Origin: a virus
UHGV virus genome: UHGV-0106768
Length of the DNA stretch: 44,108 nucleotides
Reading direction: 5' to 3' (one strand)
The notes under the pieces were generated by a model. It was not told the origin of the DNA and searched no databases. It saw only the letters and a program-made list of their open reading frames with translations. Position 1 is the first letter of the stretch. Every line of letters begins with the position of its first letter. The position numbers and the translations under genes are program-made. This document shows positions 2,675 to 35,466 of the stretch, piece by piece.

Positions 2675-3397
2675 ATGGAAAACGTGAATGTTCAGAATGC
2701 TGCCGCTATTACCGATCAGACCACACTCGGAGAACTGCTTGCAATGCTTGACCTCGCTGATAAGGCAGGCAAGATGCCGACACCGAGAGAACTGTTTGAG
2801 ACCGCCGGTGAGACGATTGCCGACATGAACGGCTGCACGCTCTTCAGCAACGGGTTCGCTGTCTACCAGAATATCACCGGACGTACTGTTGTCTGGCTGC
2901 CTTACTGTAAGAGCTTCACCTATTACTTCGGCAAGCTCCGTGATTCCGAGAAAGACACGCTGACAGAGACCTATGAGCTGCCGGATGGATTTCTGGAAAC
3001 ACAGCCGTGGGTGATCGCAGTAACACTGATCGGCGACCATCGTGTGGAGGCAAACAGCATGAACCGCACCGGCAGCCGCAAGGATACCACAGATTATGAC
3101 AGCGCCGATAACGGCGATAAAGACGGTGATGCAGAGGAGGCTTTGGCAGATCCGTATCGCAGGGCATTCAACTGGTATGACGGACGCATGGGCGAGAATC
3201 CGCAGGATGCCGTGGAGCGCAGAGAGACACGCGAGGAGATGCTTGCAGACATGACGGACAAGCAGCGTGAAGCCTTTATTATGTACTTCAGGGATGGTAT
3301 GACGCAGGAAGAGATTGCTTCATATATAGGGGTAAGCCGTGATTCCATAAATGACAGGCTTGAAGGTGCATTGAAAAAAGCAAAAAAATATTTTTGA
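2675..3397 (+). CDS. Sigma-70 region-4-like HTH regulator (sigma-factor-like protein of the kind seen in Clostridial ICEs and phages)
   Basis: The C-terminus DKQREAFIMYFRDGMTQEEIASYIGVSRDSINDRLEGALKKAKKYF matches the region-4 HTH pattern. The start is taken at ATG 2675 after AAGGAA. The track ORF starts at GTG 2648. Confidence 0.7.
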   Translation: MENVNVQNAAAITDQTTLGELLAMLDLADKAGKMPTPRELFETAGETIADMNGCTLFSNGFAVYQNITGRTVVWLPYCKSFTYYFGKLRDSEKDTLTETYELPDGFLETQPWVIAVTLIGDHRVEANSMNRTGSRKDTTDYDSADNGDKDGDAEEALADPYRRAFNWYDGRMGENPQDAVERRETREEMLADMTDKQREAFIMYFRDGMTQEEIASYIGVSRDSINDRLEGALKKAKKYF

Positions 3398-12806: not shown

Positions 12807-12902
12807 CAATATACAGTCTGTATGATCCACCCCTTATTGACGACAGGAAGACGGCAAAGCGGCGACAATTCGGTTACGCCGCAAACCACGGAGGTGAAAA
12901 CT

Positions 12903-13388
12903 ATGGCTCGTAAGAACAAACGCCTAAAAACAGAATACCACAGAGGGCTCGGCTTTGATCCGAGAAAATATATTACGGCACCGGTGCAGCACCACACCAT
13001 CGCTCACAAGCCGCAGCGCGGTGACATCTGGTTTGCGGATCTTGGCTGTCATCCGGATTCCAGCGTGCAGAGCGGCATCCGTCCGGTTATCATTCTCTCG
13101 AATGATATGGGCAATGCACACGCCGACACGGTCAATATCATTCCCATGACGCGGCATCTGAAAAAGCCGGAGCTGCCGTGCCATACGCATCTGTTCCCCG
13201 ACAGTATTTCCGATCTTCATCAGCATCTATATCCGTCCATGATCCTGGCGGAGCAGCTCACGACTGTCAGCAAGCATGCGCTTCGCAGCTATGCCGGACA
13301 TATCTCGGACGCCGATGCGATGAACCGTATTGAAACCGCTGTCATTGCACAGCTTTTCATTGAAAGGAGACATTCCGAATGCCTGTAA
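12903..13388 (+). CDS. PemK/MazF-fold toxin-like protein
   Basis: GGAGGTG RBS. PQRGDIWFADLG...SGIRPVIILSNDMGN...VNIIPMT matches the PemK/MazF core. No antitoxin-like ORF is adjacent. Confidence 0.65.
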   Translation: MARKNKRLKTEYHRGLGFDPRKYITAPVQHHTIAHKPQRGDIWFADLGCHPDSSVQSGIRPVIILSNDMGNAHADTVNIIPMTRHLKKPELPCHTHLFPDSISDLHQHLYPSMILAEQLTTVSKHALRSYAGHISDADAMNRIETAVIAQLFIERRHSECL

Positions 13389-26925: not shown

Positions 26926-26954
26926 TTGATATATCCGCCGTAATGGCGTAATAT
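26926..26954 (+). promoter_or_regulatory. Cassette promoter 1: TTGATA-17-TAATAT
   Basis: Exact 17-nt spacer. Conserved leader and GGAGG RBS follow, then ATG 27011. Confidence 0.7.
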
Positions 26955-27010
26955 GTGACTACCGCAAGGGAAAACCGAGCGGAATCAAAAACGAAACGGA
27001 GGATTCACAT

Positions 27011-28132
27011 ATGAAAACTTATGCAATGATCATTGGAAACCGCAAGGAACTCACAAAGAGAATCGAGGCACTCACCGGAGAGCGCAGCGTATACACCTTC
27101 ATGCCGAGATGCGCCTATGAGATCGGGGCATTCGCAGTCGAGAAGGACGGCACACTTACGGCACAGGACGATGCCGACCAGAGCGTGATCGACACCCTGA
27201 GAGCCGAGGGTATGATCGGTGGTGAGATCATCGCAGAGAGCATCAAGGCAGTCGAGCCGGAGCAGACCGATGAGACCGCAGAGCCGGAACAGCCTGCACC
27301 GCCCGTAAGCACCGATGAATGGGACGATGATGAGGATGACGACGATGAGAACAGCGTCGAGGGCGAGAATGCGGAAGCGGAAGAGCCGGAGGAGTCCGAA
27401 GAAAATGCCGATAAGTCGGAGCCTTCCGCAGAGCCAGAAGCCGCACCTCCTGCGACCGAGGATGCCTGGGATGATGAACCGGAGGATGAACCCGGCGACG
27501 AGCCGGAAGAAACCACCGAGCTTCCTGAACCGCTGACCGCAGAGATCAGCTTCCCGCTGAGCCATCACACGGTGCAGAGCCTTACAAACCTCATCTGCAT
27601 GATCCACTCCCGCGGCGCACTTCTCAGCAAGGCAACCGGCGGACAGTTTTACGCTGACAAGAGCCTCGCCGATGCGATCCTCGATGACAAGACCTTCCGC
27701 AGCATTCACGAGCTGATCGCCTACATCAGAGAATGGGAGGAGACGAATCCTGAACTGAAGGGCATCCGCTTCGCCGATGACAAGCTAATCTTTGACGGCT
27801 TCGGTGCAGCGCAGGATGCCGAAACGGTGCAGACCTTCACCAAGCTCGCCACAGCCATGAACAGGATGGCGATCACGCAGAAACGTGTGCAGGCAAAGGA
27901 TGTCGATGACAGCAACGAAAAGTACGCACTCCGCATCTGGCTGATCCGCCTTGGGCTGAACGGCGCAGACTGCAAGGTTGACCGCAAGCGCCTCATGGCT
28001 CCGCTTTCCGGACACACCGCATTCCGCAACGATGCGGAGCGTGTGCGCTGGGAGGCAAAGCAAAAGGCAAAGCGTGATGCTGCCAGAACCGAACTGACCG
28101 AGGAGGATGAAAACGATGCAGTTTCCGAATGA
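27011..28132 (+). CDS. Hypothetical protein with an acidic low-complexity region of about 90 aa and an amidoligase-like C-terminal tail
   Basis: 373-aa ORF. Acidic tract EPEQTDETAEPEQ...DDDEDDDDENSVEGENAEAEEPEESEE. The C-terminus EKYALRIWLIRLGLNG...LSGHTAFR parallels KKFAMRTWLMRMGFIG...LTGDNSFR of the neighbouring amidoligase. Confidence 0.6.
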   Translation: MKTYAMIIGNRKELTKRIEALTGERSVYTFMPRCAYEIGAFAVEKDGTLTAQDDADQSVIDTLRAEGMIGGEIIAESIKAVEPEQTDETAEPEQPAPPVSTDEWDDDEDDDDENSVEGENAEAEEPEESEENADKSEPSAEPEAAPPATEDAWDDEPEDEPGDEPEETTELPEPLTAEISFPLSHHTVQSLTNLICMIHSRGALLSKATGGQFYADKSLADAILDDKTFRSIHELIAYIREWEETNPELKGIRFADDKLIFDGFGAAQDAETVQTFTKLATAMNRMAITQKRVQAKDVDDSNEKYALRIWLIRLGLNGADCKVDRKRLMAPLSGHTAFRNDAERVRWEAKQKAKRDAARTELTEEDENDAVSE

Positions 28133-28364
28133 AAGACAGCTCAGAGCCTTGCGGGAGCGTTATCCCGCAGGAACCCGCATCCGACTGAAGCATATGGATG
28201 ACCCTTATGCACCCGTACCGCCCGGCACGGTCGGAGAGGTTCAGATGGTCGATGACGGCGGCAACATACACATGGTCTGGGAGAATGGCAGAACGCTCTC
28301 CCTTATAGACGGTGTCGATGATTTCCAAGTCATTTCTGACCGCAATGGGGGCTCCGGAAAATAA
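28116..28364 (+). CDS. DUF4314 domain protein
   Basis: GAGGAGGA RBS. RYPAGTRIRLKHMDDPYAPVPPGTVGEVQMVDDGGNIHMVWENGRTLSL is the DUF4314 pattern. Confidence 0.7.
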   Translation: MQFPNERQLRALRERYPAGTRIRLKHMDDPYAPVPPGTVGEVQMVDDGGNIHMVWENGRTLSLIDGVDDFQVISDRNGGSGK

Positions 28365-28477
28365 GAGATCCTATTCCATTGTATCCGAGTATACCATAGA
28401 ATTTCAAGTATATCAAGTGTACACATACACCAGATATGAGCAATGTATTTTCCTCGATATTCTGTGGTTTTAGCGGC

Positions 28478-28506
28478 TTGCTATATCCTCCGAAAGACGG
28501 TAACAT
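28478..28506 (+). promoter_or_regulatory. Cassette promoter 2: TTGCTA-17-TAACAT
   Basis: Exact 17-nt spacer. Leader hairpin GGGC-AAAC-GCCC at 28521-28532. GGAGG RBS. Confidence 0.7.
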
Positions 28507-28561
28507 GTGACACAACGGAAGGGCAAACGCCCACCGAAAAACCGAATCGGAGGATACCAAA

Positions 28562-29506
28562 ATGACTGAGAAAACCGCACAGCAGATCAACAGAATGAAG
28601 GAGCAGACCATCGGGGTTGAGATCGAGATGAACAACATCACCCGCAAGGCTGCCGCAAAGCTCGCCGCCAACTTCTTCGGCACCAGCCGCACCGAGTACA
28701 CCGCACACCGCAACGGCTACGAAACCTACAGCGCATGGGATGCACAGGGCAGAGAGTGGAAATTCCAGAAGGACGTCAGCATCGCAGGCCCCGACAGCGA
28801 AAAGTGCGAACTGGTCACACCGATCCTGCACTACGCAGACATCGAAACCCTGCAGGAGCTTGTGAGAAGGCTCAGAAAGGCAGGAGCGCGCAGTGATTAC
28901 ACGCGGGGATGTGGAGTCCACTGCCACATTGGAGCCCAGGGACACACACCGCAGACCTTGAGAAACCTCGCAAACCTGATGGCAAGCCACGAAACCCTGA
29001 TCGCCGAGGCAATCAGAGTAGACCAGAGCAGAATGCGCCGCTACTGCAGAACAGTTGACCCGAGATTCCTTGAACAGCTCAACCGCAAAAAGCCCACCAC
29101 GATGGCACAGCTTGCGGACATCTGGTACGGCGCACAGGGCTGCGAATACGGCAGAACCCACCACTACAACGACAGCCGCTATCACATGCTCAACCTCCAC
29201 GCTACCTTCACCAAAGGCACGGTCGAGTTCAGACTTTTCCAGTTCGCACCGCCTTCCAACGGCAAGCAGAACGGGCTCCACGCAGGCAAGCTCAAGAGCT
29301 ACATTCAGCTCTGCCTCGCAATGAGCCAGATGGCAAAGGACCTGCGGAGCGCCAGCCCCAAGGAACAGCAGAAGGAAAACAAAAAGTTCGCCATGCGGAC
29401 TTGGCTGATGAGAATGGGATTCATCGGGGACGAATTCGCAACCGCAAGGGAAACCCTCACCGAGAACCTTACAGGCGACAACAGCTTCCGCTTCGGCAGA
29501 CCTTAA
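28562..29506 (+). CDS. Amidoligase (glutamine-synthetase-like COOH-NH2 ligase family of phages and ICEs)
   Basis: N-terminus TIGVEIEMNNITRKAAAKLAANFFG and the core CGVHCHIG...GTVEFRLFQ match my recollection of the 'putative amidoligase enzyme' family. Confidence 0.7.
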   Translation: MTEKTAQQINRMKEQTIGVEIEMNNITRKAAAKLAANFFGTSRTEYTAHRNGYETYSAWDAQGREWKFQKDVSIAGPDSEKCELVTPILHYADIETLQELVRRLRKAGARSDYTRGCGVHCHIGAQGHTPQTLRNLANLMASHETLIAEAIRVDQSRMRRYCRTVDPRFLEQLNRKKPTTMAQLADIWYGAQGCEYGRTHHYNDSRYHMLNLHATFTKGTVEFRLFQFAPPSNGKQNGLHAGKLKSYIQLCLAMSQMAKDLRSASPKEQQKENKKFAMRTWLMRMGFIGDEFATARETLTENLTGDNSFRFGRP

Positions 29507-29542
29507 AGCCTGCCCTGCGGGGCGGAAGAACAAGCGGAACGT

Positions 29543-29670
29543 CACGGCGGCGCACACAGCACCCTCATCGCCACGTGTGGGGCGGAAGGGTATCCTCCGA
29601 ACACATACCCAACTCAGTCAACCGAGCCACACAGCGCAAATGTAGGCAAGGCATAAAATGCACAACATAC
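29543..29670. repeat. GC-rich intergenic S-module, copy 1 (divergent, hairpin arms apparently in inverted order)
   Basis: CACGGCGGCGCACAC...CCACGTGTGGGGCGG...GGCAAGGCATAAAATGCACAACA shares blocks with the copies at 32.2, 33.1 and 34.4 kb. Confidence 0.5.
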
Positions 29671-29709
29671 GGCACAGAATCGCCCTCGATGATCTGTTCA
29701 TTTACTCGC

Positions 29710-29738
29710 TTGATAATGCCGCCGAAAAGAGTTAACAT
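29710..29738 (+). promoter_or_regulatory. Cassette promoter 3: TTGATA-17-TAACAT
   Basis: Exact 17-nt spacer. Leader variant CTACCGCAAGG. AGGAG RBS. Confidence 0.65.
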
Positions 29739-29777
29739 GGCACTACCGCAAGGAAAAAACGCAAAGGAGAACATAGC

Positions 29778-30239
29778 ATGAACAAGAAAAAATACTACAT
29801 AGCCTACGGCAGCAACCTCAACATCCGCCAGATGCGGTTCCGCTGCCCAGGCGCAAAGCCCATCGGCATTTCCGCGATTCCTGACTACGAACTGCTCTTC
29901 AAGAGCAGCAAGACGGGAGCGTACCTCACCATCGAGCCGAAGGACGGCGGGCTTGTTCCGGTCGCCGTGTGGGAAGTGACAGCCGACGATGAGAAGCACC
30001 TCGACATCTACGAGGGCTACCCGAACTTCTACTACAAAAAAGAAGTACGCCTGCCGATCAAGCTGGCAAACGGCAAGACCAAAAAGGTCACGGCATTTGT
30101 CTACATCATGCACGAGGAGCGTGAGATTGCGATCCCGTCAATGACCTACATCCGCACCTGCGAGGAAGGCTACCGCAACTTCGGATTTGATGTGAAGTAC
30201 CTTGACAGGGCATACATGAGAAGCACAAAGGAGGACTGA
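29778..30239 (+). CDS. Gamma-glutamyl cyclotransferase / AIG2-like protein
   Basis: YYIAYGSNLNIRQMRFRCPGA N-terminus, and ...YEGYPNFY, typical of the GGCT/AIG2 fold. Confidence 0.7.
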   Translation: MNKKKYYIAYGSNLNIRQMRFRCPGAKPIGISAIPDYELLFKSSKTGAYLTIEPKDGGLVPVAVWEVTADDEKHLDIYEGYPNFYYKKEVRLPIKLANGKTKKVTAFVYIMHEEREIAIPSMTYIRTCEEGYRNFGFDVKYLDRAYMRSTKED

Positions 30240-30241
30240 AA

Positions 30242-30445
30242 ATGAAAGAACAGGTTTTTGAGAAGCGTACATGTCCGCAATGCGGACGCACCTACACCGA
30301 GCGTCCTGCCCTATCCCGCTACGACAACGACACGATCATCTGCCCGGACTGCGGCACGAGGGAGGCACTCGAAAGCATGGGCATCAGCATCGAGGAACAG
30401 GACAAGATCCTCGGCATCATCCACGAGAAGTACAACGGCGAATAA
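30242..30445 (+). CDS. Small zinc-ribbon protein
   Basis: CPQCG...CPDCG pairs. Starts 2 nt after the upstream stop. Confidence 0.55.
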   Translation: MKEQVFEKRTCPQCGRTYTERPALSRYDNDTIICPDCGTREALESMGISIEEQDKILGIIHEKYNGE

Positions 30446-30516
30446 GGCGACATAAAGGGGCGTTACAGCCCCTTTCCGCATTCTCAGGGATAACTTTATC
30501 CCCCACTTTCCGGGCG

Positions 30517-30565
30517 TGACACGGCGCGTTCTGGCGCAAACTGTGGGCTTGTGTATATGTACCTG
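30517..30565. repeat. S-module, partial copy
   Basis: TGACACGGCGCGTTCTGGCGCAAACTGTGGGCTTGTGTATATGTACC matches the 3' half of the other copies. Confidence 0.5.
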
Positions 30566-30617
30566 TTCAGCTTGCTGAAAACGGCGATTCTTCTACGATT
30601 TATTTTGCATATAGGCG

Positions 30618-30646
30618 TGGACATATCGCCGGGATCATGGTAATAT
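30618..30646 (+). promoter_or_regulatory. Cassette promoter 4: TGGACA-17-TAATAT
   Basis: Exact 17-nt spacer. AT-rich upstream block TTTATTTTGCA. Leader hairpin GGGC-AGACA-GCCC. Confidence 0.65.
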
Positions 30647-30704
30647 GCTACACAACGGCAGGGGCAGACAGCCCACCGGAATTCATAACATGGAGGATAC
30701 GAAC

Positions 30705-31175
30705 ATGAACGAAAGCTACTTTGAGGAGATGACCTTCCAGTGCGCCGCCTATGAACGCGCCAAAAAGGAGCGCGCCGAGCGCAAGGCTCAGATTGCCGAA
30801 GCCCACGGCTACGACAGCCCGGAGATGGACGCTTGGTACGCTGAGGAGAAGGCGGCGGGTCCTTACCCCTACAGCGGCGGTGAGATGAAAGCCTACTGGG
30901 TGTACAAGATGCGCCGCGAGAACGACGGTGACGAGTTCGAGATGAGCGATTACTGCTGGGACAAGGAATTCCACGATTTCATCGAAACGCTCCGCAAGCT
31001 AGGCATCACCGAGTTCACGATCACCAATCAGAGCACGGCGCTGATGGAGAACATCTACGGATTTATTGCAGAAGGCTGCACGATGGTCGGAACGCACACC
31101 ATCACCAAGAAGAGCCTGCGCTGGAGCGAGGAAGAATACGAAACGGCACAGGGCATCCTTTTCAAGGTGAACTGA
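30705..31175 (+). CDS. Hypothetical protein
   Basis: GGAGGATACGAAC-ATG. 156-aa ORF. Confidence 0.6.
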   Translation: MNESYFEEMTFQCAAYERAKKERAERKAQIAEAHGYDSPEMDAWYAEEKAAGPYPYSGGEMKAYWVYKMRRENDGDEFEMSDYCWDKEFHDFIETLRKLGITEFTITNQSTALMENIYGFIAEGCTMVGTHTITKKSLRWSEEEYETAQGILFKVN

Positions 31176-31183
31176 TATCGACA

Positions 31184-31207
31184 GGAGCAGGGCTTCGGCT
31201 CTGCTCC
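31184..31207 (+). terminator. GC-rich TTCG-loop hairpin after a cassette gene
   Basis: GGAGCAGGGC-TTCG-GCTCTGCTCC. Near-identical copy at 33632-33655. A C/T-rich tail follows, but no clean U-tract. Confidence 0.5.
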
Positions 31208-31293
31208 CCCTCCCCCTTTTCCTCATGTGTAACTCCTACAATACGAAAGGCTGAGATCGGCGATTCTTCTACGTTTTATTTTGCACATAGGCG

Positions 31294-31322
31294 TGGACTT
31301 ATCAGCAGGATCATGGTAATAT
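31294..31322 (+). promoter_or_regulatory. Cassette promoter 5: TGGACT-17-TAATAT
   Basis: Exact 17-nt spacer. Upstream block shared with promoter 4. Leader hairpin GGGC-AGAAC-GCCT. Confidence 0.65.
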
Positions 31323-31377
31323 GTGACACAACGGAAGGGCAGAACGCCTACCGAAAAACGAAACGGAGGATAACACC

Positions 31378-31698
31378 ATGAACCCCTACACACTGAGAAA
31401 GAGCCTGAACCTGATTGATGCCAACACGGCGATCACCCGCGAGGACTTCGAGAGCCTCTTCTGCAAGACTGCAGAGCGTGTCACCTTTACCTTCAACGGT
31501 TGGGACGGCAAGAGCTATGATGGCGAGAGCCGCAGCGGTTACGTTTACCGCACCATCATCGAGGGCTACGAGAATGTGAGATTCGTTAAGGTCGGCAAGG
31601 GACTGCATTACATCGATGAGGACAGCAGCATTACCGAGAAGGCTACGGGCATCGCCCACAAGGAAGCAGAGTGGCTGGTCGATGTGAAGAGAGCATAA
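31378..31698 (+). CDS. Hypothetical protein
   Basis: GGAGGATAACACC-ATG. 106-aa ORF. Confidence 0.6.
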   Translation: MNPYTLRKSLNLIDANTAITREDFESLFCKTAERVTFTFNGWDGKSYDGESRSGYVYRTIIEGYENVRFVKVGKGLHYIDEDSSITEKATGIAHKEAEWLVDVKRA

Positions 31699-31763
31699 GC
31701 AAAACAGCGGAGCCCTTCCTGCGGGGAGGGCTTACCGCAGAAAAAACATGGAGGTTTACGAAC

Positions 31764-32147
31764 ATGAGTACGAATTCAAGAGTCGGAATCCTGCATCAGG
31801 ACGGCGCCACGGAGACAATCTACTGCCATTGGGACGGCTACCCCGAACACCAGATGCCCATCCTCACCGAGCATTATAACACCGCCGAGAAGGTCAAGGC
31901 ACTGCTTGCCCTTGGAGACATCAGCATCCTCGGCGAGCGCCTTGCTCCCGATGCGGATGAGCCGCACAGCTTTGAAAAGCCTGCCGATGGTGTGACGGTT
32001 GCTTACCACCGCGACCGCAAAGAGCCGATGCAGCCTGCGGTCACCCACAAGAGCGTTGTTTCCCTGATGAGCGATGACTGGGGCATTCCGTATTACTACC
32101 TTTTCGATGAGGAAAAAGGAGCATGGCTTCCGCCGACCGAGGACTGA
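31764..32147 (+). CDS. Hypothetical protein
   Basis: GGAGG RBS before ATG 31764. 127-aa ORF. Confidence 0.6.
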   Translation: MSTNSRVGILHQDGATETIYCHWDGYPEHQMPILTEHYNTAEKVKALLALGDISILGERLAPDADEPHSFEKPADGVTVAYHRDRKEPMQPAVTHKSVVSLMSDDWGIPYYYLFDEEKGAWLPPTED

Positions 32148-32170
32148 TAGGTTCAGCCCTGCGGTGCTGA

Positions 32171-32290
32171 CTTGCCCCACGTTGTCCTTTGTGCGGTTTT
32201 CCTGCGATAAGCTTGCCCCTGCGGAAAGCCGCCTCACACGGCGCGTTTGTGTGCCTCCTGTGGGCTTGGTGCTATGTATACAACAAATGG
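32171..32290. repeat. S-module, copy 3
   Basis: CTTGCCCCACGTTG...GCTTGCCCCTGCGGAAAGCCGCCTCACACGGCGCGTTTGTGTGCCTCCTGTGGGCTTGG...TATACAACAA. Confidence 0.6.
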
Positions 32291-32327
32291 CGCAGATACG
32301 CCGATTTTGTTCTGAACATTTAGCCGC

Positions 32328-32356
32328 TTGCTATTCCGGAAAGATCATGGTAATAT
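32328..32356 (+). promoter_or_regulatory. Cassette promoter 6: TTGCTA-17-TAATAT
   Basis: Exact 17-nt spacer. Leader identical in its core to that of promoter 2 (ACACAACGGAAGGGCAAACGCCCACCGAA). Confidence 0.7.
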
Positions 32357-32412
32357 GCTACACAACGGAAGGGCAAACGCCCACCGAATACAAAACACGG
32401 AGGTAAACCACC

Positions 32413-32778
32413 ATGACAAAGAAGGAAATGAAAGCCGCAGTTGACAAGCTGAAGATGCTGCAGAACGGCAAAGCCGCCCTTGAGGGAATGACCGAAGCGG
32501 ACTGCCTTGAGCTTTTCGGGATCAGCAGAGCGCAGGCACTTGCAAACACAAACGCCGCCCTTGCCAAAACCGAGCAGGAGATTTTCAGAGCCGAGCATCC
32601 GCTGACAGGCATCGACAAACAGCTCTTCGAGATCGCAGCAAAGCACCTGATCACGGTGCAGGAGCGCGGAGACCTTGAAGCCCGCCACTGCGACAGCGAG
32701 GACTTCATCGAGGTTTCGGTCTGGGGGCTGGAAGCCGCCCTCAAGGATGCCTACGAGGCAGGACGCAAGAGCAAGTAA
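32413..32778 (+). CDS. Hypothetical protein
   Basis: GGAGGTAAACCACC-ATG. 121-aa ORF. Confidence 0.6.
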   Translation: MTKKEMKAAVDKLKMLQNGKAALEGMTEADCLELFGISRAQALANTNAALAKTEQEIFRAEHPLTGIDKQLFEIAAKHLITVQERGDLEARHCDSEDFIEVSVWGLEAALKDAYEAGRKSK

Positions 32779-32843
32779 CCAAACGGAACAGCGCAGCCCT
32801 TCCGCAGGGAGGAGGGGCTGCCAATCCCGAAGGAGGAAAGAAC

Positions 32844-33023
32844 ATGGATACATACGCACAGCTTGAAATGCTGACCGCAGTCATCGCAAACCTGTCGGCC
32901 ACGGGAACATGGACGGAGCGAGAAGTGATGGAAACGCTGCTGGATGTCTTTGAACCGAAGGAGCTTGAACAGCTCGGCTACGGCGACTGCGTGAACGCAT
33001 ACTTGGAAGAGTACGGCGGATAG
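32844..33023 (+). CDS. 59-aa hypothetical protein (below the ORF-track cut-off)
   Basis: GAAGGAGGA RBS. My own translation is MDTYAQLEMLTAVIANLSATGTWTEREVMETLLDVFEPKELEQLGYGDCVNAYLEEYGG. Confidence 0.5.
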   Translation: MDTYAQLEMLTAVIANLSATGTWTEREVMETLLDVFEPKELEQLGYGDCVNAYLEEYGG

Positions 33024-33034
33024 CGACGACACAC

Positions 33035-33145
33035 GCACCACGTTGCCTCGTGTGGGGCGGTGCCGGGGAGATGCGTACAGCTTGCCCCTGCGAAAAGCCG
33101 CCTTACACGGCGCGTTCTGGCGCGTCCTATACGATGTACAATTCC
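33035..33145. repeat. S-module, copy 4
   Basis: CACCACGTTGCCTCGTGTGGGGCGG...GCTTGCCCCTGCGAAAAGCCGCCTTACACGGCGCGTTCTGGCGCG. An 11-bp stem joins 33050-60 and 33098-108. Confidence 0.6.
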
Positions 33146-33193
33146 GCCCGACTTCCCGCCTCATGTTTGTCACATTTATTTTGCAGACAGACG

Positions 33194-33222
33194 TGGACTT
33201 TTCTGCGAAAAGACGGTAATAT
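33194..33222 (+). promoter_or_regulatory. Cassette promoter 7: TGGACT-17-TAATAT
   Basis: Exact 17-nt spacer. Leader variant GTGACTACCGCAAGAGAAGCGG, as for promoter 1. Confidence 0.65.
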
Positions 33223-33269
33223 GTGACTACCGCAAGAGAAGCGGAATCAATCAAAAGGAGCGAATCTAC

Positions 33270-33623
33270 ATGAAAATTCTGGTATGCGAACCCGGCAAGC
33301 ACCCCTACGTCAAGGACATCGAGTCGGGGCTGGAGAACCTTCAGCACGAGGTGGACGGACTGATTCAGGCCCTCTACCCATTTTCCGAAGAGGCGGCTGT
33401 TGTGTGCAACGAAGAAGGGCTGTTCCGCGATGACCTCGAATGGAACAGAACGGTCGATCCCTATGGTCCGATCAAGGGAACATTCTTCATTTGTGGGCTC
33501 GGCTTTGAAGATTTTACAGGACTGACCGATGAACAGATCGAAAAGTACACTAAGCTCTTCTGGCCTCCTGAGCTTTTCATCCCGACACCGAACGGCATGG
33601 TGGTGCTTCACATTGTGGAATGA
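33270..33623 (+). CDS. DUF3846 domain protein
   Basis: MKILVCEPGKHPYVKDIESGLENLQHEVDGLIQALYPF...VVCNEEG...GTFFICG pattern. Confidence 0.7.
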   Translation: MKILVCEPGKHPYVKDIESGLENLQHEVDGLIQALYPFSEEAAVVCNEEGLFRDDLEWNRTVDPYGPIKGTFFICGLGFEDFTGLTDEQIEKYTKLFWPPELFIPTPNGMVVLHIVE

Positions 33624-33631
33624 CCGCAACA

Positions 33632-33655
33632 GGGGCAGGGCTTCGGCTCTGCTCC
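33632..33655 (+). terminator. GC-rich TTCG-loop hairpin after a cassette gene (copy of 31184-31207)
   Basis: GGGGCAGGGC-TTCG-GCTCTGCTCC, with two G-U pairs. Confidence 0.5.
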
Positions 33656-33726
33656 GCACCATTCCCCGGTCATAATGTACACAACTGAACGCCGAAAAAT
33701 GCAGAAATGATCGTGATTACTCACGC

Positions 33727-33755
33727 TTGATAATGTAGGCAAGAAGAGTTATACT
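33727..33755 (+). promoter_or_regulatory. Cassette promoter 8: TTGATA-17-TATACT
   Basis: Exact 17-nt spacer. Leader hairpin GGGC-GGAAA-GCCC. Confidence 0.7.
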
Positions 33756-33812
33756 GTGTACAACGGAAGGGCGGAAAGCCCAGCCGAAAACGAAAATGCG
33801 GAGGTACACACC

Positions 33813-33992
33813 ATGAAAACGAAGCAGGAACTGATCGAGAAGGCAAAGAAAGAGTGGGGCGAGACTTGGAACGAGGGCATGATCGAGTACGATGCCGAGT
33901 ACAACGAGTACATCGTCTGGGTAGGCAAGCCGGACATCTACAAAGCCTTCTTCGATGCCGACACCCTCAGATGCATTGGCACGAAGTGCTGA
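33813..33992 (+). CDS. 59-aa hypothetical protein
   Basis: GGAGGTACACACC-ATG. The track ORF 33756..33992 contains it. Confidence 0.55.
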   Translation: MKTKQELIEKAKKEWGETWNEGMIEYDAEYNEYIVWVGKPDIYKAFFDADTLRCIGTKC

Positions 33993-34000
33993 GAACAACC

Positions 34001-34018
34001 GCCGCCCTTCGGGGCGGC
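34001..34018 (+). terminator. GC-rich TTCG-loop hairpin
   Basis: GCCGCCC-TTCG-GGGCGGC. No U-tract. Confidence 0.4.
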
Positions 34019-34047
34019 ACAACACCAATACTAAGGAGGACATTTAC

Positions 34048-34321
34048 ATGAGCGAGAACACAGAAAAGCGCGATGCAGCCGAAGAACTAAGAACTTACCG
34101 ATGCACAGGCAGACCGCAACGATGACATCTACGAGGCAGCTTTTGAATTCTGCAAGGTGCTGACCGAGAACCCCGACCTCGAATGGGACATGGCGTTCCT
34201 CGGTGAGATCGCCGACCTTGCCGCTGGCATCATGACCGAGCAGGGACACAAGGTGCGGTTCCCCAGTGTGGTCACCGAGCAGGACGGCACGCAGTACATT
34301 GAAGAATACTACGGCGGCTGA
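34048..34321 (+). pseudogene. Small cassette gene disrupted by a frameshift near codon 14
   Basis: A strong AAGGAGGA RBS precedes ATG 34048. Frame 1 (MSENTEKRDAAEELRTYR...) stops at 34123-25. The +1 frame is open from 34091 to TGA 34319-21 and reads LTDAQADRNDDIYEAAFEFCKVLTENPDLEWDMAFLGEIADLAAGIMTEQGHKVRFP... Confidence 0.55.
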
Positions 34322-34361
34322 TCGGCAAAACGGAGCAGTCCTTCTGCGGAGGGGCTGTTCC

Positions 34362-34485
34362 ACGCCACGTTCGCTTGTGTGGGGGGCTTACGGCTTTCTG
34401 CGGATATCTTGCCCCGCGATAAAAGCCGCCCACACGGCGCATTTGTGTGCCTCCTGCGGCAAGGCATAATATGTACAACAACCGA
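34362..34485. repeat. S-module, copy 5
   Basis: ACGCCACGTTCGCTTGTGTGGGGGGC...CTTGCCCCGCGATAAAAGCCGCCCACACGGCGCATTTGTGTGCCTCCTGCGGCAAGGCATAATATGTACAACAA. Confidence 0.6.
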
Positions 34486-34522
34486 CAAAAAATCACCTTG
34501 CACATTCTGGTAGTTTAGCCGC

Positions 34523-34551
34523 TTGATATATCTGCCGAAAAGAGTTATAGT
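34523..34551 (+). promoter_or_regulatory. Cassette promoter 9: TTGATA-17-TATAGT
   Basis: Exact 17-nt spacer. Leader GTGTACAACGGAACGGGAAACCGAG. Confidence 0.7.
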
Positions 34552-34607
34552 GTGTACAACGGAACGGGAAACCGAGCCGAAAACTACGAAAGAACGAGGT
34601 AAACACT

Positions 34608-34844
34608 ATGTGGCACGAAGGCACGATTCTGGCACCGACCAAGGAAGGCAAGACGGTGGTTCACTACTGGGCAAAGGTCTACGACGAGGGCAGCCAGTAC
34701 GGCATCAACGAGGGCAGAATCAGTAAACTGACACTCAAGGAGAATGGCAAGGTCATCTACAACTACGACAGAGGCGAGGATGTACCCGAGCAGAACGAGG
34801 CTGCGGAGATTGCCCTTGCGATCCTGATGTACGAGTACAAGTAA
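34608..34844 (+). CDS. Hypothetical protein
   Basis: 78-aa ORF after cassette promoter 9. GAGGT RBS. Confidence 0.6.
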   Translation: MWHEGTILAPTKEGKTVVHYWAKVYDEGSQYGINEGRISKLTLKENGKVIYNYDRGEDVPEQNEAAEIALAILMYEYK

Positions 34845-34933
34845 ATAGAACGGTCGGTGGGCGGTAGCATTAAGCCGCCCATCCAAACCAAGACGGACAC
34901 ACATATAAATTCAAGGTGGATATACATAGGAGA

Positions 34934-34961
34934 GGCTTGCAGTTTTGCAGGCCTTTTCTTT
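34934..34961 (+). terminator. Rho-independent terminator closing the accessory array
   Basis: GGCTTGCA-GTTT-TGCAGGCC (one G-U pair), followed by TTTTCTTT. Confidence 0.6.
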
Positions 34962-34992: not shown

Positions 34993-35466
34993 ATGGCTCA
35001 GAGAGGCAGAAAACCAACGCCTACGGCGATCAAAGAGCTGGAAGGCAATCCGGGCAAGCGTCCGCTGAATGATGCAGAGCCGAAGCCGGAACGCAAGGCA
35101 CCGCCCTGTCCGAAGTGGCTGGAGCCCGAAGCAAAAAAGGAATGGCGCAGGCTGTCAAAGCAACTGGAGCAGATTGGTGTGCTGACCGAGGTCGATCAGG
35201 CGGCATTCGCATCCTACTGTCAGGCATACGCACGATGGAAAGAAGCCGAGGAATTCATGACCCAGCACGGCACGATCGTAAAAACAAAATCAGGTTACTG
35301 GCAGCAGGTTCCGCAGGTATCCATTGCGCAAACTTATCTGAAGATCATGAACAAGATCGCAGAGCAGTTTGGCCTGACCCCGGCGGCAAGAAGCCGTATC
35401 ACTGCCGGCGCAGATATGAAAAACGCTGCCGTTGACGATATGGATGAACTTCTCGGAGGTGGCTGA
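34993..35466 (+). CDS. terS: Terminase small subunit, P27 family
   Basis: MAQRGRKPTPTAIKELEGNPGKRPLN N-terminus typical of the P27 family. GGAAGGAG RBS. Confidence 0.85.
   Translation: MAQRGRKPTPTAIKELEGNPGKRPLNDAEPKPERKAPPCPKWLEPEAKKEWRRLSKQLEQIGVLTEVDQAAFASYCQAYARWKEAEEFMTQHGTIVKTKSGYWQQVPQVSIAQTYLKIMNKIAEQFGLTPAARSRITAGADMKNAAVDDMDELLGGG

What the first reader, a model, noticed from the sequence alone, without database searches (positions are those of the whole stretch)
26926..34607. Nine near-identical promoter-leader cassettes drive an 8-kb array of small accessory genes between the methylase block and terS
**Promoters.** Nine intergenic sites have a -35 (TTGATA, TTGCTA, TGGACA or TGGACT) and a -10 (TAATAT, TAACAT, TATACT or TATAGT), separated by exactly 17 nt in every case. 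Their coordinates are listed in the features.

**Leaders.** Each promoter is followed by a leader of about 45-60 nt belonging to one of two sequence families.
- Family 1 is G(T/C)(G/T)(A)CACAACGGAAGGGC-loop-GCCCACCGAAAA...GGAGG. The short stem covaries between copies: GGGC/GCCC with loops AAAC, AGACA or GGAAA; GGGC/GCCT; and CGG/CCG.
- Family 2 is GTGACTACCGCAAG...GCGG.

In both families a strong RBS sits 6-9 nt before the ATG.

**Upstream blocks.** These are also shared: TTTAGC(C/G)GCTTG, and CGGCGATTCTTCTACGWTTTATTTTGCAYATAGGCGTGGAC.

The array is therefore a set of independently and presumably strongly and simultaneously transcribed mini-operons. That is the layout expected for immediate-early host-takeover or anti-defence genes. 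The repeated flanks would also allow cassette shuffling by homologous recombination. None of the small proteins has a function I can assign.
Basis: partly seen in the sequence, partly recalled or inferred. Interest (0 to 1): 0.75.

Follow-up and report, generated by a model that had tools for sequence, protein, structure and literature searches.

The report
Phage array of promoter–hairpin gene cassettes
A phage of rumen Ruminococcus-type bacteria carries nine copies of a roughly 100-bp "plug-in" promoter, most with a small 5' hairpin, each apparently switching on one or two small accessory genes. The same cassette recurs hundreds of times in related uncultured phages and resembles the shuffling cassettes known from T4-like phages.

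Summary
Nine + strand sites (−35 T[T/G]G…, exactly 17 nt, −10 TAATAT-like, then G) lie 39-58 nt before nine start codons between the methylases and terS. They occur nowhere else in the 44 kb (9 found, 0.32 expected).

Eight of the nine leaders fold into a GC hairpin that starts 8-10 nt after the −10. No Rfam family matches.

The cassette is a lineage feature. The leader core is exact in 101 IMG/VR contigs and in 23 Ruminococcus/Oscillospiraceae genome loci. A promoter-only profile finds 393 co-oriented copies, up to 11 per locus. The same promoter with hairpin-less leaders occurs in a human-gut Ca. Heliusvirales phage and in more than 120 further contigs.

Arrays are mosaic. Genes gain or lose their own cassette. 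One 1.25-kb, two-cassette indel has its crossover inside a second intergenic repeat.

My best reading is autonomous sigma-A-type transcription units, each with a 5'-proximal stabilising hairpin, a strong SD and a 3' hairpin, exchanged by recombination. This is a Gram-positive analogue of T4 PeSL cassettes, morons and the SPO1 host-takeover module.

Early timing and an anti-defence role remain untested. The only functional hints are Pfam domain names (Amidoligase_2, GGACT, DUF3846 and others) and one DUF3846-ArdA fusion.

The parts
26926..27010 (+). Cassette 1. −35 TTGATA 26926-31, −10 TAATAT 26949-54. Leader GTGACTACCGC… with hairpin 26962-26982. GGAGG, then ATG at 27011 (373-aa amidoligase-like protein with an acidic insert, followed by DUF4314 at 28107-28364).
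   Evidence: 36.1 bits; −10.7 kcal/mol; PHROG/Pfam
28478..28561 (+). Cassette 2. −35 TTGCTA, −10 TAACAT 28501-06. Two-step hairpin CGG-AA-GGGC-AAAC-GCCC-A-CCG at 28516-28536. GGAGG, then ATG at 28562 (Amidoligase_2).
   Evidence: E 6e-11; 44.4 bits; Pfam
29710..29777 (+). Cassette 3. −35 TTGATA, −10 TAACAT 29733-38. Short leader GGCACTACCGCAAGG… with no stable hairpin. ATG at 29778 (GGACT/AIG2-like gamma-glutamyl cyclotransferase, followed by a Zn-ribbon protein at 30242-30445).
   Evidence: 30.4 bits; −1.1 kcal/mol; Pfam
30618..30704 (+). Cassette 4. −35 TGGACA, TGgTAATAT extended −10 (30641-46). Hairpin 30656-30678. ATG at 30705 (DUF7698).
   Evidence: 42.7 bits; −13.8; Pfam
31294..31377 (+). 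Cassette 5. −35 TGGACT, −10 TAATAT 31317-22. Hairpin 31332-31353 with one G·U pair. ATG at 31378 (106 aa). The second gene, 31764-32147, follows an intercistronic hairpin at 31711-31732.
   Evidence: (47.4 bits). Homology to relatives starts exactly at the −10.
32328..32412 (+). Cassette 6. −35 TTGCTA, −10 TAATAT 32351-56. Hairpin 32366-32386. ATG at 32413 (DUF6900). The second gene, 32844-33023, follows a hairpin at about 32793-32821.
   Evidence: E 2e-12; 47.4 bits; Pfam
33194..33269 (+). Cassette 7. −35 TGGACT, −10 TAATAT 33217-22. Simple hairpin CCGC-AAGAGAA-GCGG at 33230-33244. ATG at 33270 (DUF3846).
   Evidence: 29.3 bits; −7.1; Pfam
33727..33812 (+). Cassette 8. −35 TTGATA, −10 TATACT 33750-55. 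Hairpin 33764-33786. ATG at 33813 (59 aa). After a hairpin at 34001-34018 comes gene 34048-34321, which is frameshifted.
   Evidence: 38.5 bits; −14.7
34523..34607 (+). Cassette 9. −35 TTGATA, −10 TATAGT 34546-51. Hairpin 34560-34579, where the inner stem is CGG/CCG instead of GGGC/GCCC. ATG at 34608 (78 aa, phrog_4709). This is the last array gene in most relatives.
   Evidence: (39.8 bits)
31184..31207 (+). GC-rich 3' hairpin (10 bp, UUCG loop) just after the stop codon of the unit. It is one of a set: 29510-29525, 30454-30475, 31184-31207, 33632-33655, 34332-34361 and 34856-34883. Most lack a clean U-run.
   Evidence: z −2.9 and −2.7 for the two UUCG hairpins; sequence
33040..33140 (+). D3 block, a conserved GC-rich intergenic element of about 110 nt upstream of promoters. 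It also occurs at about 32176-32270 and 34362-34465, with partial copies at 29565-29600 and 30505-30560. It is the crossover site of a 1.25-kb cassette indel.
   Evidence: D3, D9; 94 copies, all + strand, in 36 loci; no consensus fold
34928..34959 (+). Strong terminator-like hairpin followed by U-rich sequence. It lies between the array and the terS start (34987) and closes the array.
   Evidence: −26.3 kcal/mol, z −5.1

Best explanation
**What it is.** The region is a hyperplastic accessory-gene array in a Heliusvirales-like phage, probably temperate, of rumen Ruminococcus/Oscillospiraceae. It is built from a portable expression cassette of about 100 bp.

**Cassette anatomy.**
- A housekeeping (sigma-A/sigma-70-type) promoter: conserved upstream block, −35 T(T/G)G(A/C)TA, invariant 17-bp spacer length, invariant G two bases before the −10, −10 TAATAT, then G.
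- A transcript predicted to begin about 7 nt after the −10, inside the conserved AC(A/T)AC.
- In most copies the RNA immediately forms a short GC-rich two-step hairpin.
- An A-rich unstructured linker and a strong GGAGG Shine-Dalgarno follow.
- One or two small ORFs come next, and usually a GC-rich 3' hairpin.

**How I infer it works.** Host RNA polymerase fires each unit independently of the phage's main operons. The 5'-proximal hairpin, ribosome loading at the strong SD and the 3' hairpin protect the short mRNAs from 5' and 3' exonucleases. The result would be high, insulated expression of each accessory gene.

**Evolution.** The same promoter, leader and intergenic blocks flank every unit. 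They therefore act as portable homology at which units are inserted, deleted and re-paired by recombination between co-infecting or resident relatives. This explains the mosaic arrays.

**Shown:** the repeats, their restriction to the array, their conservation, the hairpin's fixed position and variable stem sequences, and the mosaicism, including one mapped crossover.

**Inferred:** the sigma factor used, the start site, the stabilising role, and the timing (early after entry and/or constitutive in lysogens).
For: **Repeat and specificity**
- Nine of nine sites are on the + strand before ORFs and none occur elsewhere. The model hits only the array.

**Promoter anatomy across 220 unique copies**
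- T and G of the −35 are at 100%. The G at the −14-equivalent position is at 100%.
- TAATAT is the −10 in 332 of 393 copies.
- The spacing never varies. These are all sigma-A-type features, including the extended −10 G.

**Same promoter type without the window's sigma**
- NatCom_991 carries the same promoter type but has no detectable homologue of the window's sigma-like protein.
- In NatCom_991 the promoter also precedes the serine recombinase gene.

**Hairpin**
- Leaders were collected through a promoter-only profile, independently of leader sequence. Of 183 unique leaders, 90% fold at ≤ −5 kcal/mol, with mean z −3.1.
- The first paired base is 8-10 nt after the −10 in 165 of 183 leaders.
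- At least ten different stem solutions keep the same two-step shape.
- On a MAFFT alignment, 81% of cells pair against 73% in shuffles (0/500). The covariation score is 0.111 against 0.041 (0/500). Slid controls reach at most 53%. Six of seven pairs show double changes.
- The SD is mostly unpaired in the nine window leaders.
- 3' hairpins follow the units.

**Spread**
- 101 viral contigs and 23 Ruminococcus/Oscillospiraceae genome loci, all in the same phage context.
- 393 promoter hits in 121 loci, only 2 on the minority strand. The RNA model finds 399 hits.

**Modularity**
- Gene-order maps, block ends clustering at the cassettes and homology starting exactly at the −10 while the upstream halves differ.
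- Free combination of upstream, spacer and leader types, and cassette present or absent per gene family, for example fam5 15/29.
- A crossover mapped to a shared AAAAGCCGCC inside D3.

**Precedents**
- PeSL cassettes (PMC2839356, PMC4122927).
- 5' stem-loop plus ribosome binding stabilising aprE, ermC and SP82 mRNAs (review PMC7509114).
- The SPO1 host-takeover module, with many strong promoters and RBSs before small early genes (PMC6873191).
Against: - No transcript data exist. The start site, and therefore the "5'-terminal" position of the hairpin, is a prediction.
- In the commonest subtype the stems are invariant, so they say nothing about structure. RNAalifold found no consensus on the mixed alignment. 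Covariation rests on alignment between subtypes.
- The hairpin is almost all G-C, so sense RNA cannot be told from antisense RNA or from a DNA-level hairpin.
- One window cassette and most human-gut relatives lack the hairpin. It is therefore dispensable for the promoter class.
- Unpaired positions (AC-A/T-AC, the AA bulge, the G after the −10) are conserved as strongly as the stems. A pure stabiliser does not need this, which hints at sequence-specific recognition.
- TAATAT is kept rather than drifting to TATAAT.
- The 3' hairpins mostly lack U-runs, so termination between units is uncertain.
- The one mapped crossover lies in D3, not in the promoter-leader.
Confidence: 0.6

Rival explanations
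1. **Co-regulation site.** The conserved −10-to-+30 segment (GTGAC-AC[A/T]AC plus the inverted repeat) is the target of a dedicated phage regulator. This could be a repressor bound to DNA, an RNA-binding protein, or a nuclease acting on the leader. It would switch all cassettes off (or on) together after an initial burst, as Aca proteins do at anti-CRISPR promoters and as T4 RegA/RegB do on early mRNAs. On this view the hairpin is a recognition element rather than a passive stabiliser.
For: - Unpaired leader positions and the base right after the −10 are as conserved as the stems.
- The GTAATATGTGACTACC start is exact in more than 120 further contigs, even where no hairpin exists.
- A single shared site before every unit is the simplest way to co-regulate 3-11 promoters.
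- Precedent: strong early acr promoters need Aca repression (PMC13551039 abstract). An RNA- and DNA-binding Aca2 is recalled from my own knowledge.
Against: - No HTH or known RNA-binding regulator was found among the array genes. The only candidate is a weak Zn-ribbon hit.
- Stem sequences differ between subtypes while pairing is kept. This fits folding better than a sequence-specific duplex operator.
- Loop length varies from 3 to 7 nt.
- This rival is compatible with the best explanation rather than exclusive of it.
Confidence: 0.25
2. **Prophage-expressed morons.** The cassettes are constitutive host-type promoters that express the accessory genes from the resident prophage, as lysogenic conversion or superinfection functions, rather than immediately after DNA entry.
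For: - The units have the moron layout of promoter, gene and hairpin, and vary between otherwise collinear relatives.
- Related elements sit in sequenced Ruminococcus flavefaciens and Ruminococcus sp. genomes.
- NatCom_991 carries serine recombinases.
- A strong terminator separates the array from terS.
Against: - The gene content looks like the entry or establishment repertoire of mobile elements rather than host-benefit cargo. It sits next to three DNA methylases, includes an amidoligase/GGACT pair, and DUF3846 is fused to ArdA elsewhere.
- No PADLOC defence family matches.
- The same promoter type drives a recombinase gene in NatCom_991, a gene needed on entry or excision.
- The two timings are not mutually exclusive.
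Confidence: 0.3
3. **Phage sigma promoters.** The promoters are read by the phage's own sigma-like protein (2675-3397). The array would then be a middle or late regulon rather than a host-polymerase regulon.
For: - The window encodes a protein with sigma-70 region 4.
- TAATAT and the flanking bases are nearly invariant, unlike a typical drifting housekeeping promoter.
- No sigma-70-like promoters are enriched elsewhere in the window.
Against: - The −35 TTG, 17-bp spacer, −14 G and TAnnnT are canonical group-1 sigma features.
- NatCom_991 has four promoters of this type but no detectable homologue of the sigma-like protein.
- Only 4 of the array contigs overlapped the 16 sigma-positive contigs. 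That search finds close relatives only, so it is inconclusive.
Confidence: 0.1
4. **Site-specific cassette capture.** The GGGC/GCCC inverted repeat, or the D3 block, is a DNA-level recombination signal. It would be recognised as a folded single strand or as a duplex by a recombinase, as with integron attC sites, so the array would be an active gene-capture device.
For: - The hairpin cannot be assigned to RNA rather than DNA.
- Cassette-like gain and loss occurs.
- PeSL authors speculated on a GGGG/CCCC-binding recombination protein, and T4 deletions at GGGC/GCCC repeats have been reported (PMC2839356).
Against: - No integrase or recombinase was detected among the window's main ORFs with Pfam.
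- The mapped junction is a plain crossover within about 10 nt of shared sequence inside a 110-nt homology block. This is what general homologous recombination gives.
- Block ends are spread over about 300 nt rather than falling at one point.
Confidence: 0.05
5. **Riboswitch or attenuator.** The leader is a small ligand- or signal-sensing RNA, for example preQ1-I-like with a hairpin and an A-rich tail, that gates translation or termination.
For: A hairpin followed by an A-rich tail (…CCGAAAACUACGAAA…GGAGG) superficially recalls the preQ1-I layout (own knowledge).
Against: - No Rfam match at the gathering threshold in the whole window, or at E ≤ 1 in the array.
- Loops and tails vary freely.
- No U-run follows the hairpin.
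- The SD is not sequestered.
- Unrelated genes share the leader.
Confidence: 0.02

Closest known systems
PeSL (promoter-early stem-loop) mobile regulatory cassettes of T4-like myoviruses (Arbiol et al. 2010, PMC2839356; Comeau et al. 2014, PMC4122927)
   Same: - Repeated composite elements of about 100 bp with a sigma-70-type promoter and a GC stem-loop.
- Concentrated in a hyperplastic region immediately upstream of small orphan genes, ending in an SD and a start codon.
- Indels and replacements between close relatives are bounded by the repeats.
- Proposed to carry their own expression signals and to serve as homology for modular shuffling.
   Different: - No sequence relationship. The host is a Gram-positive anaerobe and the phage is Heliusvirales-like, not a T4-like myovirus.
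- Here the stem-loop lies in the transcribed leader (about +2 to +25) and has no U-run. In PeSLs it sits within or around the promoter and acts as a terminator for upstream transcription.
- Terminator-like hairpins and a further 110-nt repeat (D3) are separate elements here.
- All copies sit in one array before terS, rather than in several regions.
- Promoter activity, termination and mini-circles were shown experimentally for PeSLs. Nothing is shown experimentally here.
Morons of lambdoid and other temperate phages (Juhala/Hendrix 2000; own knowledge, also discussed in PMC2839356)
   Same: Extra genes with their own promoter and a downstream hairpin, inserted between conserved modules, and present or absent among otherwise collinear phages.
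   Different: Morons are usually single, unrelated insertions without shared flanks. Here up to 11 units share one promoter-leader and spacer family. Expression from the prophage, which is typical of morons, is untested.
SPO1 host-takeover module (Stewart et al. 1998, as described in PMC6873191) and T5 pre-early / T4 early regions (own knowledge)
   Same: A cluster of many small genes in several short operons, each with host sigma-A-type promoters and strong ribosome-binding sites, placed at a genome end or module boundary.
   Different: SPO1 is a large lytic phage. Its module lies in a terminal redundancy and its early timing and toxicity are demonstrated. Its promoters are not described as one repeated cassette with a common leader hairpin.
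5' stabiliser leaders (B. subtilis aprE and ermC, phage SP82, E. coli ompA; review PMC7509114)
   Same: A short leader with a stem-loop at or near the 5' end and a strong SD. Together these protect the mRNA.
   Different: The function here is inferred from predicted start sites only. The conserved unpaired bases are not explained by stabilisation.
Aca-controlled anti-CRISPR promoters (PMC13551039) and anti-defence islands in plasmid leading regions (own knowledge: Samuel et al. 2024)
   Same: Strong promoters with inverted repeats in front of small counter-defence genes that must be expressed at once on entry. The regions are hypervariable and next to methylase or ArdA-type genes.
   Different: No Aca-like regulator and no known anti-defence protein were identified here. 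Leading-region promoters are single-strand (Frpo-type) promoters, not canonical duplex promoters.

Membership tests
PeSL cassettes | Repeated intergenic motif containing a sigma-70-type promoter consensus | tested here: met
   Nine sites in the window against 0.32 expected. A position matrix of 220 unique copies shows an invariant TTG-type −35, a 17-bp spacer and TAATAT.
PeSL cassettes | Stable GC stem-loop that is part of the promoter motif and terminates or attenuates upstream transcription | tested here: not met
   A hairpin is present in 8 of 9 window copies and about 90% of all copies. It starts 8-10 nt after the −10, inside the predicted transcript, and is followed by CCGAAAA rather than a U-run. 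Separate 3' hairpins lie upstream. Terminator activity is not testable here.
PeSL cassettes | Concentrated in a hyperplastic region, directly upstream of small variable ORFs | tested here: met
   All copies lie between the methylases and terS. The same position holds in relatives.
PeSL cassettes | Insertions, deletions and replacements between related genomes are bounded by the repeats | tested here: met
   One crossover is mapped in the D3 intergenic repeat. Homology to three relatives begins at the −10.
PeSL cassettes | Formation of excised mini-circles by recombination between neighbouring copies | not testable with these tools
   Needs inverse PCR or long-read data from infected or induced cultures.
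PeSL cassettes | Occurs in T4-like myoviruses | tested here: not met
   The window has DUF2800 nuclease, Enc34-type SSB, PolA, a D5-type primase, P27-family terS and an HK97-like layout. Its closest named relative is a Ca. Heliusvirales phage.
Moron | Gene with its own promoter and terminator inserted between conserved phage genes, variably present among relatives | tested here: inconclusive
   Predicted promoter and variable presence are met. The downstream hairpins mostly lack U-runs, so termination is uncertain.
Moron | Expressed from the repressed prophage | not testable with these tools
   No transcript data are available.
Rfam cis-regulatory RNA families (including the preQ1-I riboswitch) | Match to a curated covariance model | tested here: not met
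   There are 0 matches at the gathering threshold in the whole window. The only hit in the array is a chance-level PhotoRC-I match (17.5 bits against 45) on the opposite strand.
Intrinsic terminator / attenuator | GC hairpin followed by a U-run | tested here: not met
   The leader hairpins are followed by A-rich sequence. The terminator scan listed none of them.
5' stabiliser leader (aprE/ermC/ompA type) | Stem-loop within a few nucleotides of the mRNA 5' end | tested here: inconclusive
   The hairpin starts 8-10 nt after the −10 in 165 of 183 leaders. That is +2 to +4 if initiation is at the usual distance. The start site itself is not known.
5' stabiliser leader (aprE/ermC/ompA type) | Strong, accessible Shine-Dalgarno sequence | tested here: met
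   GGAGG occurs in 113 of 155 unique copies, 8-10 nt before the start codon in the window. It is mostly unpaired in the centroid folds.
5' stabiliser leader (aprE/ermC/ompA type) | The hairpin lengthens mRNA half-life | not testable with these tools
   Needs rifampicin chase or reporter assays.
SPO1-type host-takeover module | Cluster of small genes in several short operons with host-type promoters and strong RBSs | tested here: met
   Nine units hold about 14 ORFs in 7.7 kb.
SPO1-type host-takeover module | Expressed early, with products that shut down host processes | not testable with these tools
   Only domain names are available: Amidoligase_2, GGACT, DUF4314, DUF7698, DUF6900 and DUF3846. 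There are no PDB, NCBIfam or PADLOC assignments.
Integron cassette array | Adjacent integrase and promoterless cassettes ending in attC sites | tested here: not met
   No integrase or recombinase domain was found among the window's main ORFs. Every unit has its own promoter. The mapped junction is an ordinary crossover in a 110-nt repeat. attC models were not searched.

The most novel reading that the evidence does not exclude
The conserved start region and leader hairpin would be the address tag of a phage-specific regulon. A so far unidentified phage or host factor would recognise GTGAC-AC(A/T)AC plus the hairpin, on DNA or on the nascent RNA. It would time a whole interchangeable set of entry or anti-defence genes. 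The same tag and the neighbouring D3 block would make the array an integron-like, recombination-driven gene-capture platform across Ca. Heliusvirales-type gut and rumen phages.
Probability: 0.15. Interest if true: 0.75.

Novelty: new variant of a known kind. Interest (0 to 1): 0.5.

Why it matters
- **A marker for accessory genes.** Heliusvirales-like phages are among the most widespread gut and rumen phages (PMC11283538), and nothing is known about their gene expression. A recognisable promoter-leader tag marks a whole class of accessory genes in hundreds of uncultured genomes. It gives a direct way to list candidate entry, anti-defence or lysogenic-conversion genes, and a defined sequence to test in reporters.
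- **Generality of the PeSL principle.** It would extend regulatory cassettes that double as recombination linkers from T4-like coliphages to an unrelated phage lineage of Gram-positive anaerobes. That would suggest a general way in which phages keep a fast-evolving gene arsenal expressible.
- **A possible tool.** The cassette could serve as a compact expression part for Clostridia.

Tried and rejected
- **Rfam.** The gathering-threshold scan of the window and the E ≤ 1 scan of the array found nothing relevant. Riboswitch and known-leader readings were dropped.
- **Generic scans.** The promoter/terminator scan is not significant on its own: 10 promoter-like sites against 5.4 expected. It listed none of the leader hairpins as terminators.
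- **Near-identity search of the array against 50,697 phage records.** Only the amidoligase and terS genes hit, at 76-79%. A 110-nt cassette query in distant mode found nothing.
- **My first IUPAC pattern was mis-specified** and missed most copies.
- **RNAalifold.** It gave no consensus on the mixed leader alignment or on the D3 alignment.
- **Structure-fitted alignment.** The top 150 model hits have invariant stems, so they give no covariation information.
- **Sense versus antisense folding energies** do not differ (p = 0.42). RNA and DNA hairpins cannot be told apart this way.
- **Sigma co-occurrence.** The search finds only close relatives: 16 loci, 4 shared with array contigs. This is inconclusive.
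- **Protein function.** PDB sequence searches of four small proteins, NCBIfam and PADLOC gave no function.
- **Literature.** I found no description of these arrays in Ruminococcus, rumen or Heliusvirales phages.
- **Rejected idea.** I considered that the short gut-type leaders form a GUGAC/GUCAC stem enclosing the SD. GTGAC most likely lies upstream of the start site, so I dropped it.

Full report
**Observation**

- Each has a −35 hexamer (TTGATA, TTGCTA, TGGACA or TGGACT), exactly 17 nt, and a −10 (TAATAT ×5, TAACAT ×2, TATACT, TATAGT), followed by G.
- An SD follows, and an ATG lies 39-58 nt after the −10.
- A degenerate pattern covering the nine hits only these nine positions, all on the + strand, in the whole 44,108-bp window. 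Shuffles give 0.32 expected. The pattern is post hoc.
- A generic sigma-70 scan is not significant on its own, at 10 against 5.4 ± 2.5.
- The weight of the case therefore lies in the extended similarity: the repeat families, profile E-values down to 1e-12, and a covariance model that finds the nine at 29-47 bits. The model finds one further 20.9-bit hit inside the amidoligase gene and nothing else on either strand.
- Eight of the nine leaders fold into a hairpin (−7 to −15 kcal/mol). The cassette before 29778 does not.

**Context**

The window is a tailed-phage genome segment transcribed in one direction. In order it carries:
- a sigma-70 region-4 protein, DUF2800 nuclease, Enc34-type SSB, PolA, HNH, an SNF2 helicase, a MazF-like protein and a D5-type primase;
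- SAM synthetase, NrdD/NrdG and three DNA methylases;
- the array;
- P27-family terS, terL with a LAGLIDADG insert, portal and capsid.

The array genes carry Amidoligase_2 (plus a second amidoligase-like protein), DUF4314, GGACT/AIG2, a Zn ribbon, DUF7698, DUF6900 and DUF3846. Several ORFs belong to no family.

The nearest named phage is Acutalibacteraceae phage NatCom_991, classified in Ca. Heliusvirales. It shares the replication, methylase, amidoligase-GGACT, terL, portal and capsid genes.

**Spread**

- The leader core ACAACGGAAGGGC-N3-6-GCCYA is exact in 101 IMG/VR contigs, often several times per contig.
- It is exact in 65 genome stretches. Of these, 23 carry promoter-profile hits, all in rumen Ruminococcus, Oscillospiraceae or Clostridia, and those with detectable homologues of window proteins show the same methylase-array-terminase context. 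The other 42, from unrelated phyla, have no promoter match. I take them as chance hits in 596 Gb.
- A profile of the promoter part alone (55 nt ending at the −10) finds 393 copies in 121 loci, up to 11 per locus, with only 2 on the minority strand.
- The RNA model finds 399 hits in 100 viral loci.
- NatCom_991 has four promoters of the same type (TGGATA-17-TAATAT). Three lie in its methylase-to-terL region and one lies before its serine recombinase gene. Their leaders are short and have no hairpin.
- The string GTAATATGTGACTACC is exact in more than 120 further viral contigs. It sits mostly before homologues of the first array gene and the amidoligase.
- The promoter class is therefore a lineage trait. 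The rumen clade has expanded it into long arrays and added the hairpin.

**Promoter anatomy**

Across 220 unique copies in register:
- The T and G of the −35 and the G two bases before the −10 are invariant.
- TAATAT dominates, at 332 of 393 copies.
- The base after the −10 is G in 91%.
- The spacing never changes.
- TTCTGT and TTTAGC blocks upstream of the −35 are conserved.

These are group-1 (housekeeping) sigma features with an extended-−10-like G. The window's sigma-like protein has no detectable homologue in NatCom_991, which has the same promoters. This weakens the idea that it reads them. No sigma-70-like promoters are enriched in the first 19 kb of the window, so the array holds essentially all recognisable host-type promoters.

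**Hairpin**

- Leaders were gathered through the promoter-only profile, so the selection did not depend on their own sequence.
- Of 183 unique leaders, 90% fold at ≤ −5 kcal/mol within nt 6-42, with mean z −3.1.
- The first paired base falls 8-10 nt after the −10 in 165 of 183 leaders. That is about +2 to +4 if initiation is at the usual distance. This last step is inference.
- Loops vary from 3 to 7 nt.
- At least ten different stem solutions keep the same two-step shape. Examples are CGG/CCG, CGC/GCG, CCG/CGG, GGC/GCC, CCGC/GCGG and CCGG/CCGG for the outer stem, and GGGC/GCCC, AGGC/GCCU, GGC/GCC, CGG/CCG, GGGU/ACCC and GCG/CGC for the inner stem.
- On a MAFFT alignment of 119 leaders, the named structure pairs 81% of cells against 73% in shuffles (0/500). 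The covariation score is 0.111 against 0.041 (0/500). Slid controls reach at most 53%. Six of seven pairs have changes on both sides.

Caveats:
- RNAalifold returned no consensus on that alignment.
- The 150 best model hits have invariant stems and so carry no information.
- Sense and antisense folds are equally stable, so RNA is not proven over DNA.
- The hairpin is followed by A-rich sequence, not a U-run, and the SD stays largely open. It is not a terminator or an SD-masking switch.

**Unit ends and spacers**

- Most units end with a GC-rich hairpin right after the stop codon. Two are near-identical 10-bp stems with UUCG loops.
- Two-gene units have a hairpin between the cistrons.
- Several spacers contain a further conserved block of about 110 nt, D3. 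It has 94 copies, all on the + strand, in 36 loci, and usually ends 50-100 nt before the next −10. It has no consensus fold.
- A strong hairpin with a U-run closes the array just before terS.

**Modularity**

- Gene-order maps of 36 loci show the array always between the methylases and the terminase, but with different unit content and order. Examples are "DUF7698 > fam11 fam5" in the window against "> fam10 > fam13 > fam5" or "> fam11 > fam10 > fam5" elsewhere.
- The gene at 31764 has its own cassette in 15 of 29 relatives but not in the window. Other families range from 0% to 100%.
- Upstream, spacer and leader subtypes combine freely.
- Ends of homology blocks between loci pile up from −225 to +75 around the −10 and are nearly absent from the adjacent coding sequence. 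This test does not separate cassettes from intergenic DNA in general.
- Homology of the window's fam11 unit to three relatives begins exactly at the −10, while the upstream promoter halves differ.
- L030 and L047 are 97-99% identical to the window on both sides but lack about 33,107-34,434, which holds two cassettes and three ORFs. Their sequence switches from the window's 33-kb D3 copy to its 34-kb copy within a shared AAAAGCCGCC.

**Interpretation**

The best-supported reading is a set of autonomous host-type transcription units, each with a 5'-proximal hairpin, a strong SD and a 3' hairpin. The repeated regulatory DNA also serves as recombination homology.

The closest known parallels are:
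- the PeSL cassettes of T4-like phages, for which promoter strength, termination and mini-circles were shown (PMC2839356, PMC4122927);
- morons;
- the SPO1 host-takeover module (PMC6873191);
- for the leader, the aprE/ermC/SP82 type of 5' stem-loop plus ribosome-binding stabiliser (PMC7509114).

It is not a member of the PeSL set. It has no sequence relationship, it belongs to a different phage lineage, and the hairpin is in a different place with a different likely role.

Timing and function remain open.
- Hints toward entry or establishment functions: the position next to the methylases and before terS, DUF3846 fused to ArdA in an Oscillospiraceae element, and the same promoter before a recombinase gene.
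- Residence of related elements in sequenced Ruminococcus genomes makes constitutive moron-type expression equally possible.
- The strong conservation of unpaired leader bases, even in hairpin-less relatives, leaves room for a dedicated regulator.

**Verdict**

This is a new variant of a known kind, of moderate interest.

Noticed in passing
window 32176-32270, 33040-33140, 34362-34465 (partial copies 29565-29600, 30505-30560): D3 is a conserved GC-rich intergenic block of about 110 nt (…CCACGTTCGCYYGTGTGGGGC…CTTGCCCCTGCGRAAAGCCGCCYCACACGGCGCG…) just upstream of many promoters. It has 94 copies, all on the + strand, in 36 related loci. It translates into spurious ORFs that cluster as the largest "protein family". 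Single copies fold into long hairpins, but no consensus structure was found. Its function is unknown. It is the crossover site of a 1.25-kb indel.
   Followed up: partly
window 34048-34321: One extra A near 34089 frameshifts this gene. The 97%-identical locus L024 encodes an intact 90-aa protein here. This is either a pseudogene or a sequencing error.
   Followed up: yes
window 29434-29475: A leader-like sequence (…CGCAACCGCAAGGGAAACCCTCACCGAGAAC…) lies inside the 3' end of the amidoligase gene. It scores 20.9 bits with the leader model and has no promoter upstream. It may be chance or a relic.
   Followed up: no
window 34928-34959: A very stable hairpin (−26 kcal/mol, z −5.1) with a U-rich tail sits about 25 nt before the terS start codon. 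Late transcription must therefore start inside this short gap or read through the hairpin, which suggests antitermination-type control of the late operon.
   Followed up: partly
window 35466-38132: The large terminase is 888 aa and carries a LAGLIDADG_3 domain between its N-terminus and the ATPase domain. This is probably an intein or a homing-endonuclease insertion.
   Followed up: no
window 12822-13388: A protein with a PemK/MazF-like toxin domain is encoded inside the replication module, between the SNF2 helicase and the primase.
   Followed up: no
window 2675-3397 (and the AT-rich gap 2034-2370 with two terminators at 2047-2066 and 2097-2115): A sigma-70 region-4 protein is encoded at the head of the replication operon, after a strong terminator and an AT-rich regulatory gap. 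NatCom_991, which shares the array promoter type, has no detectable homologue.
   Followed up: partly
L183 7903-7960, 8890-8970, 10725-10792; PV036413.1 about 2995 (− strand): The human-gut Ca. Heliusvirales phage NatCom_991 has four promoters of the same type (TGGATA-17-TAATAT, then GTGACTACC or similar). One lies in front of its serine recombinase ("DNA invertase") gene.
   Followed up: partly
L185-L299 (IMG/VR contigs): The short gut-type leaders read GTGACTACC-(A-rich)-AAGGAGGTCAC. GTGAC and GTCAC are reverse complements that would enclose the SD in a loop if both were transcribed, for example in read-through RNA from upstream.
   Followed up: no
L301 4332-6104 (Vescimonas fastidiosa pMM35_01): A 590-aa protein annotated as antirestriction protein ArdA contains a DUF3846-like segment 42% identical to the window's 33270-33623 product. 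It sits beside topoisomerase III, DUF3849 and a transposon-transfer assisting protein. This is a polyvalent-protein-style fusion that links DUF3846 to anti-restriction.
   Followed up: partly
window 28365-28477: This is the only AT-rich spacer in the array. It has no 3' hairpin or D3 block, and it holds two overlapping − strand promoter-like sites (TTGATA-17-TATACT with TG, and TTGAAA-18-TACAAT).
   Followed up: no
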